From Dehalococcoidia bacterium (GTDB taxonomy: Bacteria > Chloroflexota > Dehalococcoidia > Lucifugimonadales > UBA1127), in assembly GCA_965116355.1 (NCBI GenBank), contig OZ220679.1, positions 1,118,669-1,182,668 of the forward strand: 64,000 nucleotides of DNA. The letters run 5' to 3'. The translations under genes and the position numbers were made by a program. Each line of letters begins with the position of its first letter. Within the stretch, counting starts at the first letter, position 1. The notes beneath the pieces are model-generated. The model saw nothing but the letters and a program-made list of their open reading frames with translations, was not told where the DNA came from and searched no databases. Shown piece by piece: positions 8,509 through 10,809 of the stretch.

Positions 8509-8898
8509 TCAACCCCGCCCCATGATGCGGCAGATGCTGTTGACGGTGCTGATGATGTGCTCCGGCTTGGCATCCGGATTGTTGAGAAGCGCGCGGAGGC
8601 GGACGCGGAGGACGCCGACCTCCGGGGCGAGGCCGCGAATCTCCATGGCTTCCTGCAGGTCTTGCTGTTCCTCCGGGGTCAAGTACTTGGCGTAGAAGCC
8701 GTGCTTGCGTGCGTTCTGGTTGCCGGGCTGGCCGCCGGAGTTTCTGCGTTCGGGTTCCTCCAGGGTTTCCTGCTCCAACTCATCTTCGAGGTCATCGAGG
8801 GCGTCGAGGGCCTTGGCTTTGCGGTAGTCCTGGTAGTTGTGGGCGGCGCGGATCATGTCGGTCATTTCCTTGAGGATGTCGGTCTGGGGCTCCTCCAT
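8509..8898 (-). CDS. small acidic/basic protein, possible phage small-terminase-like or DNA-binding protein (129 aa)
   Basis: ATG 8898 with AAGGAGG SD; the track start at 9063 runs through a repeat and the TcmP 3' end. MEEPQTDILKEM...GGQPGNQNARKHGFYAKYLTPEEQ... The GNxNAxKHG motif recalls N-termini of some phage small terminases, but this is a weak call. Confidence 0.55.
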   Translation of the reverse strand: MEEPQTDILKEMTDMIRAAHNYQDYRKAKALDALDDLEDELEQETLEEPERRNSGGQPGNQNARKHGFYAKYLTPEEQQDLQEAMEIRGLAPEVGVLRVRLRALLNNPDAKPEHIISTVNSICRIMGRG

Positions 8899-8950
8899 GG
8901 CGGGCCTCCTTTGGGTGTGTGTGCATGGAGGACTGTAGCGCGCGGGGCGG

Positions 8951-8978
8951 GGGATGGGGGAGGGGTTGGTGTCAGGGG
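8951..8978. repeat. 28-bp element GGGATGGGGGAGGGGTTGGTGTCAGGGG, copy 1 (copy 2 at 20089..20116)
   Basis: Exact 28/28 identity between the two copies. Each ends 13 nt from a TAnnnT -10-like hexamer on the minus strand (TACAGT 8937..8932; TACCCT 20075..20070). Confidence 0.85.
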
Positions 8979-8980
8979 GG

Positions 8981-9820
8981 TTACCAGTGCTTGAGGATGT
9001 GATCTGCGATGTTGATGGCAATGCGGGCGCCACGCGGGTTGCCTGCAGCAAAGAACAGCTCAAAAATCTCTACGTTCCGCGAGTTCCTGAATGTGCGACG
9101 CGTTGGAGCAACAGCGTGAAACGCGGATTCCAACCGTGCGCGATAGGCTTCCGCAATTTGCTTTGTCCCAGTTGAACGGCTTTGCCGTCGCTCACTGTCG
9201 AACATTGAGAGCTGTGGAGACTCGCTGTAATGACCATACCAGAAGGAACGGCCTCCAAATACTCTATCCAAGCGGCTCGCCAAAGCCGGGCTAGGCTCGC
9301 CATTTCTCCGCATCATGCGAGTAACTGCCATAAGAGGGAACAGAATCCAGCAGTCAATTTTCTTTGTGTCCGCGATGGCAGCTACCGTATCCCAAGACAC
9401 CTCTGTTGCGAACGGATCCAAAAACACAACAGCGCGATCATAAGGCCTCATATCGCGACAGAACCTTTGCACTTCGGCGTTCGCGTCACCTTGAACTACC
9501 TGAATCATTCGCTCAGGGAATTCACTTGCTAGCAGTCGCAAGTCCTCAACTCGGCTTCTATCCTTTTCAATGAATAGGAAGCGGTCAAATGGACGGTTGT
9601 CTATGCTGAGCGCAATTCTCGCAGAACCCGCGTGTACCTCTTGGAATTCTGCGTACTCTTGCGAGGCTTCAACATATGCGCCCGCACCAGCAAACCCGTC
9701 CACATAGGTCAACGTAAAGGGTTGATCCTTCATTACGGTGGTGTAGGCGTCAAGGTAACGTCTGAGGATTTCGAGCTTTTCCGATGTCCATTGGCCGCCA
9801 AACGATGGTACGTTAGTCAT
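8981..9820 (-). CDS. tcmP: three-Cys-motif partner protein TcmP-like (279 aa)
   Basis: MTNVPSFGGQWTSEKLEILRRYLDAYTTVM...LTYVDGFAGAGAY...GSARIALS...FLFIEKD...VVFLDPF matches my recollection of the TcmP family. Starts 2 nt after the DUF5131 stop. Lower G+C than the flanks. Confidence 0.8.
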   Translation of the reverse strand: MTNVPSFGGQWTSEKLEILRRYLDAYTTVMKDQPFTLTYVDGFAGAGAYVEASQEYAEFQEVHAGSARIALSIDNRPFDRFLFIEKDRSRVEDLRLLASEFPERMIQVVQGDANAEVQRFCRDMRPYDRAVVFLDPFATEVSWDTVAAIADTKKIDCWILFPLMAVTRMMRRNGEPSPALASRLDRVFGGRSFWYGHYSESPQLSMFDSERRQSRSTGTKQIAEAYRARLESAFHAVAPTRRTFRNSRNVEIFELFFAAGNPRGARIAINIADHILKHW

Positions 9821-10577
9821 GGTTGGCCGCTCTGTCCGGCATCTCGCGCCATGTTTCGCCGTCAACGACGGCTGCGGCTCCGCCACGCTTGTTTCGGGAT
9901 CCGCCAAGCTGCTTCAGGAAGAAGGCTACGCCCGCCTCTTGCGACTGGTCCCGGAGAAAGCGAACCCACTCCATGTCCATCGGGCGGGCTGCACGGCCGC
10001 TCTCGCCTCCAACGATCAGCCACTGCACGTCGCCGTTGTCGAGCCAGTGGCTCAGGTCCACCTGCCCGAGGAGAGGCTCAGCGGAGACGAAGCGGATGGG
10101 GGCGGGAAGGCGAGACAGAACCGTGATGCGCGGGGCGTACTTTTGGTTTTCGACAGACGTGCCAATCCACACATTCACGGGCCATTCGTCAGCAAAGGCG
10201 GACTTGTTTTCCTCCCACCATGCGACTGCTCGGCCTGGCCGCTTGGTCAGCACCTGGAAGACGTGCCCGCGGGACTCGGCGGCTTCTTGCATGACCTCAA
10301 AGGCGGCCGTCACGAATTCAAAGGGCACGTCATGGTGGAAGAGGTCAGACATGCTGTTGACGAAAACGTGCCGCGGCGTTCCCCAACGGAGCGGCACGTT
10401 CAGACGTTCCGGCAGCAGCCGTACGGTGCTCGGCTCACTTTCGTAGCCCGGCACGCCCATAGCGGTGAGTCGAGGGTAGAGGGCATACATGTAGCAGTGG
10501 TCGCAACCCGGTGACACGCGGGTGCAGCCGGTGACGGGATTCCAAGTCTCGTCCGTCCACTCGATGTTCGACGACAT
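9813..10577 (-). CDS. phage Gp37/Gp68 family (DUF5131) protein with C-x6-C-x2-C motif (254 aa)
   Basis: [31 protein letters not shown]... is the hallmark N-terminus of the family. ATG 10577 has GGAG upstream; the track TTG start at 10592 is less likely. Confidence 0.9.
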   Translation of the reverse strand: [254 protein letters not shown]

Positions 10578-10601
10578 CTGGTCACACTCCAATCAGTAAC
10601 A

Positions 10602-10637
10602 GAACGTATATTCTAATAAACAATCGTTCTCTGTCAA
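10602..10637 (-). promoter_or_regulatory. near-consensus promoter TTGACA-16-TAGAAT overlapped by two LexA(Cheo)-box-like sites
   Basis: Minus-strand TTGACA 10637..10632 and TAGAAT 10615..10610. GAACGATTGTTT (10629..10618) and GAATATACGTTC (10613..10602) are each one mismatch from GAAC-N4-GTTC. Confidence 0.5.
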
Positions 10638-10809
10638 GCCCTTCAAAGAAATGAAATGCCACCTCATTTTGTTCCCAGTCCTGGCATGGAACTTCGCACT
10701 GGCGACGGAAGGGCCGAATTCATGTGTTTCCTTGGGCACTCCTACGGGGGATCCTTCTGGGAAGGGGAAGGGTGCCCTTCCACAGGCCCGGGGCGAACAG
10801 TTTGTGGGC

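What the first reader, a model, noticed from the sequence alone, without database searches (positions are those of the whole stretch)
8509..10640. DUF5131 (Gp37/Gp68, three-Cys) + TcmP + small protein module behind a promoter overlapped by two LexA-box-like sites: candidate damage-inducible nucleic-acid modification or defence module of unknown function
Three co-oriented minus-strand genes sit in a visibly lower-G+C patch between a housekeeping peptidase and an ABC importer. (i) 9813..10577 has the hallmark N-terminus [25 protein letters not shown] of the Gp37/Gp68 (DUF5131) family, with a C-x6-C-x2-C motif. (ii) 8981..9820 starts 2 nt later and matches the three-Cys-motif partner protein (TcmP) family. 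Its YVDGFAGAGAY and FLDPF segments look like methyltransferase motifs I and IV. (iii) 8509..8898 encodes a 129-aa acidic/basic protein with a GNQNARKHGFY motif. The DUF5131-TcmP pairing is a recognised co-occurrence, but to my knowledge it has no experimentally assigned function. The new observation here is the control region. A near-consensus TTGACA-16-TAGAAT promoter (10637..10610) is overlapped by GAACGATTGTTT (10629..10618) and GAATATACGTTC (10613..10602). Each is one mismatch from the GAAC-N4-GTTC Cheo/LexA box used by Gram-positive-type LexA. That predicts SOS control. The three-Cys protein could be a non-canonical Fe-S (radical-SAM-like) enzyme working with a methyltransferase-like partner on DNA or RNA.
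Basis: partly seen in the sequence, partly recalled or inferred. Interest (0 to 1): 0.75.

Follow-up and report, generated by a model that had tools for sequence, protein, structure and literature searches.

The report
SOS-controlled radical-SAM and methyltransferase gene pair
A horizontally acquired two-gene operon (a radical-SAM-type enzyme plus a methyltransferase-fold partner, function still unknown) sits behind a promoter covered by a DNA-damage (LexA) operator that is conserved in dozens of related Chloroflexota genomes, which gives the first regulatory clue to what this widespread gene pair does.

Summary
On the minus strand, DUF5131 (9813..10577, C-x6-C-x2-C) and TcmP (8981..9820) overlap by 8 nt. 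They sit behind TTGACA-16-TAGAAT, with two GAAC-N4-GTTC-like boxes.

The SOS prediction passed a comparative test.
- All 80 related loci (nearly all Chloroflexota MAGs) keep the pair adjacent.
- 28 of 76 upstream regions carry GAAC-N4-GTTC with at most 1 mismatch; 4.1 are expected by chance.
- The sites give the consensus TAGAACATATGTTCTA.
- The same motif lies upstream of recA in related genomes.
- A matrix trained only on recA sites hits 44/76 DUF5131 promoters, against 0.7% of control tiles.

The proximal box (10600-10615) is conserved. The distal box (10616-10631) is kept only in the closest relative.

The 129-aa ORF is not part of the module. It is absent from all 80 loci and belongs to a separate multi-copy family.

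TcmP models as an RlmJ-like SAM methyltransferase. DUF5131 models weakly as a radical-SAM-like barrel.

The pair is a known but uncharacterised couple (TIGR04474; PADLOC candidate PDC-M41). LexA control appears unreported in the papers I could search.

Function remains inferred: damage-induced modification or repair of nucleic acid, with SOS-induced defence as the main rival.

The parts
10632..10637 (-). -35 hexamer TTGACA
   Evidence: Promoter scan: 11 of 12 matches, 16-nt spacer. TTGACA is invariant in the alignment with L032 and L003.
10610..10615 (-). -10 hexamer TAGAAT, which overlaps the left arm of the proximal operator
   Evidence: In many related loci the equivalent TAGAAC lies 16-18 nt after a TTGACA.
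10600..10615 (-). Proximal LexA-type operator TAGAATATACGTTCTG (core GAAT-ATAC-GTTC at 10613..10602). It covers the -10 hexamer and the expected transcription start.
   Evidence: One mismatch from GAAC-N4-GTTC. It is the best hit in the 64-kb window to the matrix built from DUF5131-upstream sites (18.7 bits). It scores 14.1 bits with a matrix trained only on recA-upstream sites. It is conserved in L032 and L003 while the promoter spacer diverges.
10616..10631 (-). Distal, weaker LexA-like box GAGAACGATTGTTTAT (core 10629..10618) in the promoter spacer. It directly abuts the proximal box, 16 bp centre to centre.
   Evidence: It scores 12.8 bits with the recA-trained matrix. It is conserved in L032 (GAGAACAAATGTCTAT, 16.5 bits) but replaced by unrelated sequence in L003. 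Only 3 of 76 loci have two sites.
10587..10590 (-). Ribosome-binding site GGAG, 9 nt before the ATG of DUF5131
   Evidence: Read directly from the sequence. Conserved in L032 and L003.
9813..10577 (-). DUF5131 (Gp37/Gp68 family) protein, 254 aa, a radical-SAM-superfamily-type enzyme with C18-x6-C25-x2-C28
   Evidence: - PF07505, E=7.6e-83.
- PADLOC PDC-M41B, 5e-85.
- phrog_2045.
- C18, C25 and C28 are invariant in 45 sequences.
- AF2 model with pLDDT 82 and a low-confidence Cys loop.
- Weak fold matches to LIAS and SPL.
8981..9820 (-). TcmP (three-Cys-motif partner protein), 279 aa, an RlmJ-like class I SAM methyltransferase fold. It overlaps DUF5131 by 8 nt.
   Evidence: - TIGR04474, 198 bits against a cut-off of 53.
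- PADLOC PDC-M41A, 8e-87.
- AF2 model with pLDDT 87.
- Foldseek best matches are RlmJ, E 1e-8, TM 0.54.
- Invariant D41, F43, A44, G45, G47 (motif I) and D135, P136 (motif IV-like).
- Adjacent to DUF5131 in 80 of 80 related loci.
8509..8898 (-). Neighbouring 129-aa ORF with a GNQNARKHG motif. It is a real gene but NOT part of the conserved module.
   Evidence: - No homologue in any of the 80 related loci.
- GC3 of 0.85, unlike the pair.
- Three 52-53% paralogues on the same 2.59-Mb contig.
- Homologues stand alone among housekeeping genes.
- Only sub-threshold matches to the N-terminal motif of terminase small subunits.

Best explanation
The feature is a two-gene operon, compositionally foreign to its surroundings. 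It encodes a DUF5131 radical-SAM-type enzyme and its methyltransferase-fold partner TcmP, and it belongs to the LexA (SOS) regulon of Chloroflexota.

Proposed regulation: in undamaged cells LexA binds the palindrome TAGAATATACGTTCTG, which covers the -10 hexamer and the transcription start. In this lineage it probably also binds an abutting weaker site in the promoter spacer. This blocks RNA polymerase. DNA damage activates RecA, LexA cleaves itself, and the strong TTGACA-16-TAGAAT promoter fires. The two translationally coupled proteins are then made together.

Proposed function: TcmP keeps an intact SAM-binding site and an aromatic residue after a D-P motif, as in RlmJ/RsmD-type enzymes that methylate an exocyclic amino group. 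It probably binds nucleic acid and flips out a base. DUF5131, whose closest radical SAM relatives include spore photoproduct lyase, probably performs radical chemistry on that base or lesion. The most likely job is damage-induced modification or direct repair of DNA, less likely of RNA.

Shown: gene identities, gene linkage, the promoter, conservation of the operator, and its identity with the recA operator of related genomes. Inferred: LexA binding, induction, formation of a complex, and the substrate.
For: Linkage:
- DUF5131 and TcmP are adjacent in 80 of 80 related loci. No third gene is conserved; the next most common family is in 9 of 80 loci.
- The genes overlap by 8 nt.
- One TcmP homologue is fused to DUF1848, another three-Cys family (P0399). 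Another TcmP sits next to a canonical Radical_SAM protein.

Operator:
- GAAC-N4-GTTC with at most 1 mismatch occurs in 28 of 76 upstream regions, against 4.1 expected.
- The sites give the consensus TAGAACATATGTTCTA, which is the Gram-positive-type LexA motif (PMC3323433).
- The recA gene of MAG locus L017 has TAGAACGCATGTATTG over its -35 hexamer.
- The closest metagenomic recA relatives have TAGAACAWATGTDTTT about 100 nt upstream.
- A matrix trained only on recA sites scores at least 10 bits in 44 of 76 DUF5131 promoters, against 35 of 4718 control tiles.
- Of 33 hits of at least 13 bits in about 1 Mb of loci, 29 lie just upstream of a DUF5131 gene and one at recA.
- The proximal box is conserved in the window, L032 and L003 while the spacer diverges.

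Enzymes: fold and motif evidence. DUF5131 sits next to spore photoproduct lyase in RadicalSAM.org megacluster 5 (PMC9477430).

Analogy: M. tuberculosis LexA binds at Rv2578c/Rv2579 (PMC3381160). That Rv2578c is an SplB-like radical SAM protein is my own knowledge.

Context: immediate neighbours in Chloroflexota are mostly metabolic genes. DUF5131 is very conserved, 64-93% identity. In temperate phages it lies in the integrase/early region, near the integrase and, in one phage, near bet.
Against: - No LexA protein, lexA gene or other SOS gene of this very genome could be examined. The source contig could not be retrieved, and the window holds no obvious SOS gene.
- About 40% of related loci lack a recognisable box.
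- recA of L035 has no clear box.
- The operator overlaps the -10 hexamer, so part of its conservation could be promoter conservation.
- No biochemical function is known for either family.
- The radical-SAM fold match is weak (E about 0.02, TM 0.46-0.51) and the Cys motif is not the canonical CX3CX2C.
- PADLOC lists the pair as a candidate defence system. Some relatives sit next to BREX or Hna. This favours the defence rival over repair.
Confidence: 0.6

Rival explanations
1. The pair is an anti-phage or anti-mobile-element defence system (PADLOC candidate PDC-M41), with expression tied to the SOS signal. It could work like a restriction-modification pair, with the methyltransferase-fold protein marking self nucleic acid and the radical enzyme damaging unmarked nucleic acid. 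It could also act as an abortive response when phage infection or prophage induction triggers SOS.
For: - Both proteins match PDC-M41A/B at E about 1e-85.
- TcmP neighbours BREX genes on a Nostoc plasmid and Hna in S. meliloti (PMC12445080).
- A methylase-fused reverse transcriptase group (UG25) associates with the related three-Cys family DUF1848 (PMC9226505).
- Roughly 10 of 134 immediate neighbours in Chloroflexota hit defence models.
- The pair looks foreign by composition and is scattered among unrelated contexts.
- In Gordonia phage Easley the pair lies between the integrase and the immunity repressor, a typical place for genes expressed from a prophage.
Against: - No experimental anti-phage activity was found in the literature searched.
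- Most neighbours in Chloroflexota are metabolic genes.
- DUF5131 is unusually conserved for a defence protein (64-93%).
- DUF5131 occurs without TcmP in about 170 phage genomes. This fits poorly with a toxic effector that needs a protective partner.
Confidence: 0.27
2. The palindrome is not a LexA site. It is either promoter sequence (the -10 region and start site) or the operator of another regulator, and the operon is not damage-inducible.
For: - The left arm coincides with the -10 hexamer.
- LexA binding was not tested.
- Some related loci carry a different upstream motif, TAGTAT-N4-TGTAT.
Against: - The conserved right arm, ATGTTCT, has no promoter role.
- The same 16-mer occurs over the -35 hexamer of recA in L017 and upstream of recA in its closest relatives.
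- A matrix trained on recA sites alone picks out DUF5131 promoters about 80-fold over background.
- The consensus equals the known Gram-positive-type LexA box.
Confidence: 0.08
3. The pair is a decaying remnant of a prophage early or lysogeny module that kept its LexA-controlled promoter but has no function for the host.
For: - DUF5131 is common in temperate phages near the integrase.
- GC3 is low.
- Phage capsid and Abi-like genes lie within 10 kb in the window.
Against: - Both ORFs are intact and under strong purifying selection in 80 loci. The promoter, operator and gene overlap are all kept.
- The Chloroflexota subfamily (at least 44% identity) is absent from 2.9 million viral contigs, where the best match is 38%.
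- The locus is syntenic between two species-level relatives.
Confidence: 0.05

Closest known systems
DUF5131 (PF07505, phage Gp37/Gp68) + TcmP (TIGR04474) pair = PADLOC candidate system PDC-M41
   Same: Both proteins match the family models far above threshold and are adjacent. The window pair is a member.
   Different: I found no reported function or regulation for the pair. Here, and in most Chloroflexota relatives, it is a stand-alone operon in the order DUF5131 then TcmP, with a LexA-type operator. In phages, plasmids and Proteobacteria the two genes are often convergent, separated, or TcmP is paired with another three-Cys or radical SAM protein.
Gram-positive/Chloroflexi-type SOS box (Cheo box, GAAC-N4-GTTC; B. 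subtilis CGAACATATGTTCG)
   Same: A 16-bp palindrome with GAAC/GTTC arms and an AT-rich centre. It overlaps the promoter core, as at classical SOS genes. The consensus of the sites upstream of DUF5131 is TAGAACATATGTTCTA.
   Different: The window site has GAAT in the left arm, which at the same time makes a better -10 hexamer. Many Chloroflexota sites, including those at recA, have a weaker right arm (GTAT/GTGT). That Dehalococcoides LexA binds this motif is my own recollection (Fernandez de Henestrosa et al., J Bacteriol 2002); I could not retrieve the paper here.
Spore photoproduct lyase and SplB/MJ0683-like radical SAM DNA repair proteins (e.g. LexA-bound Rv2578c of M. tuberculosis)
   Same: They share RadicalSAM.org megacluster 5 with DUF5131. 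SPL appears among the fold matches (4fhc, TM 0.46). There is a LexA ChIP peak at Rv2578c/Rv2579.
   Different: There is no detectable sequence similarity to SPL. The Cys motif is CX6CX2C, not CX3CX2C. SPL works without a methyltransferase-fold partner.
RlmJ (23S rRNA m6A2030 methyltransferase, DUF519) and RsmD-like methyltransferases
   Same: RlmJ gives the best structural matches to the TcmP model, at similar length (about 280 aa). Sequence-profile hits go to RsmD-like methylases 2fhp and 2esr and to Cons_hypoth95. Motif I (DxFAGxG) is shared.
   Different: Sequence identity is only 12-14%. Motif IV is D-P-[YF] instead of DPPY. TcmP always partners a three-Cys protein and carries two invariant Cys of its own, C121 and C157.

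Membership tests
DUF5131 / Gp37-Gp68 (PF07505) | Full-length match to the family model above the gathering score | tested here: met
   278 bits against a cut-off of 28.9, covering 2-243 of 243 model positions.
DUF5131 / Gp37-Gp68 (PF07505) | N-terminal three-Cys motif C-x6-C-x2-C | tested here: met
   C18, C25 and C28 are present and invariant in 45 homologues.
Radical SAM superfamily | Canonical CX3CX2C cluster motif | tested here: not met
   The motif is CX6CX2C. Non-canonical spacings exist in accepted members (own knowledge), and RadicalSAM.org lists DUF5131 as a subgroup.
Radical SAM superfamily | Partial or full TIM-barrel core with the cluster loop after the first strand | tested here: inconclusive
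   The AF2 model has alternating strands and helices. Foldseek matches to LIAS (TM 0.51), SPL (0.46) and NifB come only at E about 0.02, mixed with ordinary TIM barrels. Viral radical SAM proteins also appear weakly. NCBIfam gives only a sub-threshold hit to TIGR04471 (36.6 bits against 355).
Radical SAM superfamily | [4Fe-4S] binding and reductive cleavage of SAM | not testable with these tools
   Needs biochemistry.
TcmP (TIGR04474) | Match above the curated cut-off | tested here: met
   198.2 bits against a cut-off of 53.
TcmP (TIGR04474) | Encoded next to a three-Cys-motif protein | tested here: met
   It overlaps DUF5131 by 8 nt. The two are adjacent in 80 of 80 related loci.
Class I SAM-dependent methyltransferase (RlmJ/RsmD-like) | Rossmann-like methyltransferase fold | tested here: met
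   The model has pLDDT 87. 147 PDB matches have E<=0.001, all methyltransferases among the best 50, led by RlmJ at 1e-8.
Class I SAM-dependent methyltransferase (RlmJ/RsmD-like) | SAM-binding motif I and catalytic motif IV (D/N-P-P-Y/F) | tested here: inconclusive
   Motif I (D41-x-F43-A44-G45-x-G47) is invariant. Motif IV is D135-P136-[Y/F], one proline short of the canonical form. Methyl transfer was not tested.
PADLOC PDC-M41 candidate defence system | Both component models hit adjacent genes | tested here: met
   PDC-M41A at 8.2e-87 and PDC-M41B at 5.1e-85.
PADLOC PDC-M41 candidate defence system | Protection against phage | not testable with these tools
   No experimental report was found. 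Enrichment of defence genes among Chloroflexota neighbours is weak.
LexA (SOS) regulon, GAAC-N4-GTTC type | A palindromic box at or overlapping the promoter | tested here: met
   The proximal box covers the -10 hexamer and the start site, with 1 mismatch. It scores 14.1 bits with the recA-trained matrix.
LexA (SOS) regulon, GAAC-N4-GTTC type | Box conserved upstream of orthologues | tested here: met
   28 of 76 with at most 1 mismatch, against 4.1 expected. 44 of 76 at 10 bits or more, against 0.74% of control tiles.
LexA (SOS) regulon, GAAC-N4-GTTC type | Same motif at core SOS genes (recA, lexA) of the same lineage | tested here: inconclusive
   Met for recA of the related MAG locus L017 and for the closest metagenomic recA genes. 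Not met for recA of L035. No lexA gene was found in the 1.9 Mb fetched.
LexA (SOS) regulon, GAAC-N4-GTTC type | LexA binding and induction by DNA damage | not testable with these tools
   Needs EMSA or ChIP, and expression data.
Phage terminase small subunit (for the 129-aa ORF) | Match above the family cut-off over the DNA-binding and oligomerisation domains | tested here: not met
   NF040601 gives 23 bits against a cut-off of 120, covering only residues 53-85. PHROG and tblastn hits cover only 26-42% of the protein.

The most novel reading that the evidence does not exclude
DUF5131-TcmP is a previously unrecognised SOS DNA-repair or lesion-processing enzyme. An RlmJ-like base-flipping subunit presents a damaged or target base to an SPL-related radical SAM subunit, which reverses or converts it. 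This would be a new damage-inducible radical-based repair pathway shared by Chloroflexota and many temperate phages, not a defence system.
Probability: 0.2. Interest if true: 0.85.

Novelty: new variant of a known kind. Interest (0 to 1): 0.62.

Why it matters
DUF5131 and TcmP form a widespread pair with no known function.
- TcmP alone has about 960 clusters at 50% identity with E<=1e-30.
- DUF5131 is in at least 181 phage genomes.
- The pair is currently filed only as a 'candidate defence system'.

A conserved LexA operator gives the first regulatory handle and a concrete condition, DNA damage, under which to look for activity. It also links the family to the only radical SAM clade known to repair DNA. 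It adds a non-canonical, horizontally mobile member to the little-studied SOS regulon of Chloroflexota. If the function is repair, it would be a new pathway. If it is defence, it would be an example of immunity wired directly to LexA.

Tried and rejected
- Retrieving the source genome to build its own LexA regulon failed. Exact-match look-ups for the window DUF5131, the window TcmP, P0001 and P0243 all failed, although 100%-identical TcmP and small-ORF proteins exist on a 2.59-Mb NCBI contig.
- I looked for SOS genes in the window. tblastn with LexA and RecA found none. The other matrix hits lie inside a HigB-like ORF or in coding sequence. A 15-bit site at 20074-20089 is within chance expectation.
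- I treated the 129-aa ORF as a third component and rejected this.
- I looked for a conserved third gene, a defence island or a prophage around the pair in Chloroflexota and found none.
- I looked for island boundaries, tRNAs or structured RNAs around the patch and found none.
- Sequence searches of the PDB with DUF5131 gave only noise.
- Literature searches for DUF5131, TcmP, PDC-M41 and Gp37/Gp68 gave no functional study. The Dehalococcoides LexA paper is not in the library.
- I considered a split RlmN/Cfr-like methyl synthase, because TcmP has two invariant Cys. There is no evidence beyond those residues, so I keep it only as a speculation.

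
Full report
**What is in the sequence**

Three co-oriented ORFs lie on the minus strand between an M16 peptidase (7053..8381) and ABC-transporter permeases (10810..12823).
- The first, 9813..10577, begins [29 protein letters not shown]. It matches Pfam DUF5131 at E=7.6e-83, PADLOC PDC-M41B at 5e-85 and phrog_2045.
- The second, 8981..9820, matches the TcmP model TIGR04474 at 198 bits against a cut-off of 53 and PADLOC PDC-M41A at 8e-87.
- The two genes overlap by 8 nt (ATGACTAA).
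- The third ORF, 8509..8898, encodes the 129-aa protein with GNQNARKHGFY.

Upstream of DUF5131 the promoter TTGACA-16-TAGAAT matches 11 of 12 consensus positions. GC3 is 0.76 for DUF5131 and 0.54 for TcmP, against 0.93-0.95 in the flanking genes, so the pair looks foreign to this genome. Such 1-mismatch boxes are not enriched in the window overall (16 found, 22 expected). Two of them within the 232-nt intergenic region has P about 0.002.

**The module has two genes, not three**

A scan of one genome per species with a TcmP alignment returned 80 loci. Nearly all are Chloroflexota MAGs labelled Dehalococcoidia, Caldilineaceae or Chloroflexota. Most homologues carry no organism label, and the few that do are labelled Chloroflexota MAGs, so the window is very probably from a Chloroflexota bacterium.
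- DUF5131 is adjacent to TcmP in all 80 loci. The order is DUF5131 then TcmP, except in the four most distant loci.
- The 129-aa ORF has no homologue in any of them, including the syntenic relative L001/L003. That relative has the order ABC permeases - DUF5131 - TcmP - M16 peptidase - cytochrome c - NrdR - ribonucleotide reductase.
- The small ORF is a real gene of another kind. Three 52-53% paralogues lie on the same 2.59-Mb contig, and homologues stand alone among housekeeping genes. Its matches to terminase small subunits are short and below threshold.
- No other gene family recurs near the pair; the best is in 9 of 80 loci.
- Immediate neighbours are mostly metabolic genes. About 10 of 134 hit defence models.

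**The SOS prediction**

The 160 nt upstream of DUF5131 in 76 non-redundant loci show an obvious recurring palindrome.
- GAAC-N4-GTTC with at most one mismatch occurs in 28 of 76 regions, against 4.1 expected from shuffles. Five are perfect, against 0.14 expected.
- The sites give the consensus TAGAACATATGTTCTA. This is the LexA motif first described for B. subtilis and Gram-positive bacteria (PMC3323433). From my own knowledge it was also reported for Dehalococcoides.

To connect the motif to LexA without circularity I looked at recA.
- recA happens to lie 1.7 kb from the pair in MAG locus L017. It has TAGAACGCATGTATTG over its -35 hexamer.
- A metagenome scan with that RecA returned 80 loci. 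The closest relatives (69-78% identity) carry TAGAACAWATGTDTTT about 100 nt upstream.
- A matrix trained only on these recA sites scores at least 10 bits in 44 of 76 DUF5131 promoters, against 35 of 4718 control tiles from the same loci.
- Of the 33 hits of at least 13 bits in about 1 Mb, 29 lie just upstream of a DUF5131 gene and one at recA.

In the window the proximal 16-mer TAGAATATACGTTCTG (10615..10600) scores 14.1 bits and the distal GAGAACGATTGTTTAT (10631..10616) scores 12.8 bits. An alignment with the two closest relatives shows the -35 hexamer, the proximal box and the following GTTACTG conserved. The spacer that holds the distal box is kept in L032 (DUF5131 93% identical) and replaced in L003 (87%). 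Only 3 of 76 loci have two sites. So one operator is ancestral and general, and the second is a feature of this lineage.

Limits of this test:
- No lexA gene turned up in the 1.9 Mb fetched.
- recA of L035 has no clear box.
- About 40% of loci lack a box. Six of these have a different motif, TAGTAT-N4-TGTAT.
- The source genome could not be reached.

**What the proteins look like**

TcmP:
- It models confidently (pLDDT 87).
- Its best PDB matches are the 23S rRNA m6A methyltransferase RlmJ and its DUF519 relative (E 1e-8, TM 0.54), followed only by other SAM methyltransferases.
- Profile searches reach RsmD-like methylases and align TcmP's FLDP[YF] with their LDpPY.
- Invariant residues include D41, F43, A44, G45, G47, then D135 and P136, and two cysteines, C121 and C157.

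DUF5131:
- It models at pLDDT 82, with the Cys loop (residues 21-33) at low confidence, as expected for a missing metal cluster.
- Fold matches are weak (E about 0.02). They mix TIM barrels with the radical SAM enzymes lipoyl synthase (TM 0.51), spore photoproduct lyase (0.46) and NifB. Viral radical SAM proteins also appear weakly.
- C18, C25 and C28 are the only invariant cysteines.
- RadicalSAM.org lists DUF5131 as megacluster 5-2, beside MJ0683-like (5-1) and spore photoproduct lyase (5-3) (PMC9477430).

**Wider context**
- TcmP has about 960 clusters at 50% identity with E<=1e-30.
- One TcmP homologue is fused to DUF1848 (P0399). From memory, DUF1848 is another family with a radical-SAM-like Cys cluster. 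On a Nostoc plasmid TcmP sits next to a canonical Radical_SAM protein and BREX genes. TcmP is therefore a general partner of radical-SAM-type proteins.
- DUF5131 is in 181 phage records, mostly Mycobacterium, Gordonia and Burkholderia phages. TcmP is in only 10.
- In temperate phages DUF5131 lies near the integrase and the immunity or early region.
- The Chloroflexota subfamily is not found in 2.9 million viral contigs; the best match there is 38% identical.
- No paper in the library reports a function or a regulator for the pair.
- A LexA ChIP peak at Rv2578c/Rv2579 in M. tuberculosis (PMC3381160) is a possible precedent. From my own knowledge, Rv2578c is an SplB-like radical SAM protein.

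**Most likely mechanism**

Shown:
- A stand-alone, translationally coupled two-gene operon.
- A strong sigma-70-type promoter.
- An operator that matches the recA operator of related genomes and is conserved across the phylum.

Inferred:
- LexA represses the operon by occluding the -10 hexamer and the transcription start, helped here by a second abutting site.
- RecA-stimulated LexA cleavage derepresses it.
- The two proteins form a complex in which the RlmJ-like subunit binds nucleic acid and flips out a base.
- The radical-SAM-type subunit acts on that base.

I favour damage-induced modification or direct repair of DNA. The reasons are the kinship with spore photoproduct lyase, the very high conservation of DUF5131 (64-93%), the housekeeping neighbourhoods, and the phage copies that lack TcmP. 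An SOS-wired defence system is a serious rival because of PDC-M41, the BREX and Hna neighbours, and the UG25-DUF1848 association (PMC9226505).

**Novelty and verdict**

The gene pair itself is a known, uncharacterised couple, and the window copy is an ordinary member. What seems new is that in Chloroflexota this pair is a conserved member of the LexA regulon. I rate it a new variant of a known kind, with interest about 0.6. The regulatory finding is solid by comparative standards and makes the function directly testable, but the biochemistry is still inference.

Noticed in passing
window 8509-8898 (-): The 129-aa ORF belongs to a small-protein family with four copies in this genome (three 52-53% paralogues on the same 2.59-Mb contig). 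It has stand-alone homologues in other Chloroflexota, and its GNxNAxKHG segment resembles the N-terminal motif of terminase small subunits / YjcR. Function unknown.
   Followed up: partly
window 19126-21184; L001 1-3791: A phage major-capsid-like gene (19126..20016, -) lies next to a DUF7014/Abi_C protein (20273..21184, +). A capsid gene and an SU10 adaptor gene also flank the ABC transporter in the syntenic relative L001. This may be a conserved prophage remnant or a gene-transfer-agent-like cluster.
   Followed up: no
window 20074-20089 (+): TAGAACGGGTGTGCTG scores 15.1 bits with the recA-trained LexA matrix. It lies in the intergenic region between the capsid gene and the Abi_C-like gene. 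One such hit in 64 kb is about what chance gives, so it may mean nothing.
   Followed up: partly
window 35040-36460 (+): The end of a HigB-like toxin ORF is followed by a 422-aa protein with an IrrE/ImmA-type Peptidase_M78 domain. This looks like a toxin-antitoxin or damage-sensing regulator pair.
   Followed up: no
L037, L048, L058, L060, L063, L068 (about 20-40 nt upstream of DUF5131): These loci lack the GAAC-N4-GTTC box. They share TAGTAT-N4-TGTAT just upstream of the ribosome-binding site. This may be a diverged LexA motif of a sub-lineage, or only a -10 region.
   Followed up: no
P0399 (608 aa); L164 3835-4809: TcmP is fused to DUF1848 in one protein and neighbours a canonical Radical_SAM protein (next to BREX genes) on a Nostoc plasmid. 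TcmP therefore partners several different Cys-cluster enzyme families.
   Followed up: partly
L017 8448-9665; L035 9557-10522: recA lies within 2-4 kb of the DUF5131-TcmP pair in two of the 80 loci. In L017 both promoters carry the box.
   Followed up: partly
L023 1486-2274 and about 5200-6834: This MAG locus has two DUF5131 copies. The copy at 1534-2274 also has a LexA-type box just upstream (CAGAACATATGTGCAG).
   Followed up: no
L169 7616-7837: In one viral contig a LexA/CI-like S24 peptidase segment is encoded immediately upstream of TcmP-DUF5131.
   Followed up: no
window about 6890-7060, 11690-11760, 12740-13040: Spurious ORFs in several intergenic stretches translate to the same peptides (e.g. 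...NRPYG..., ...ESPLRG..., ...GIQ/FPPSRERR...). This suggests a family of short interspersed repeats (REP/MITE-like) in this genome. Similar sequence flanks the pair in L001.
   Followed up: no
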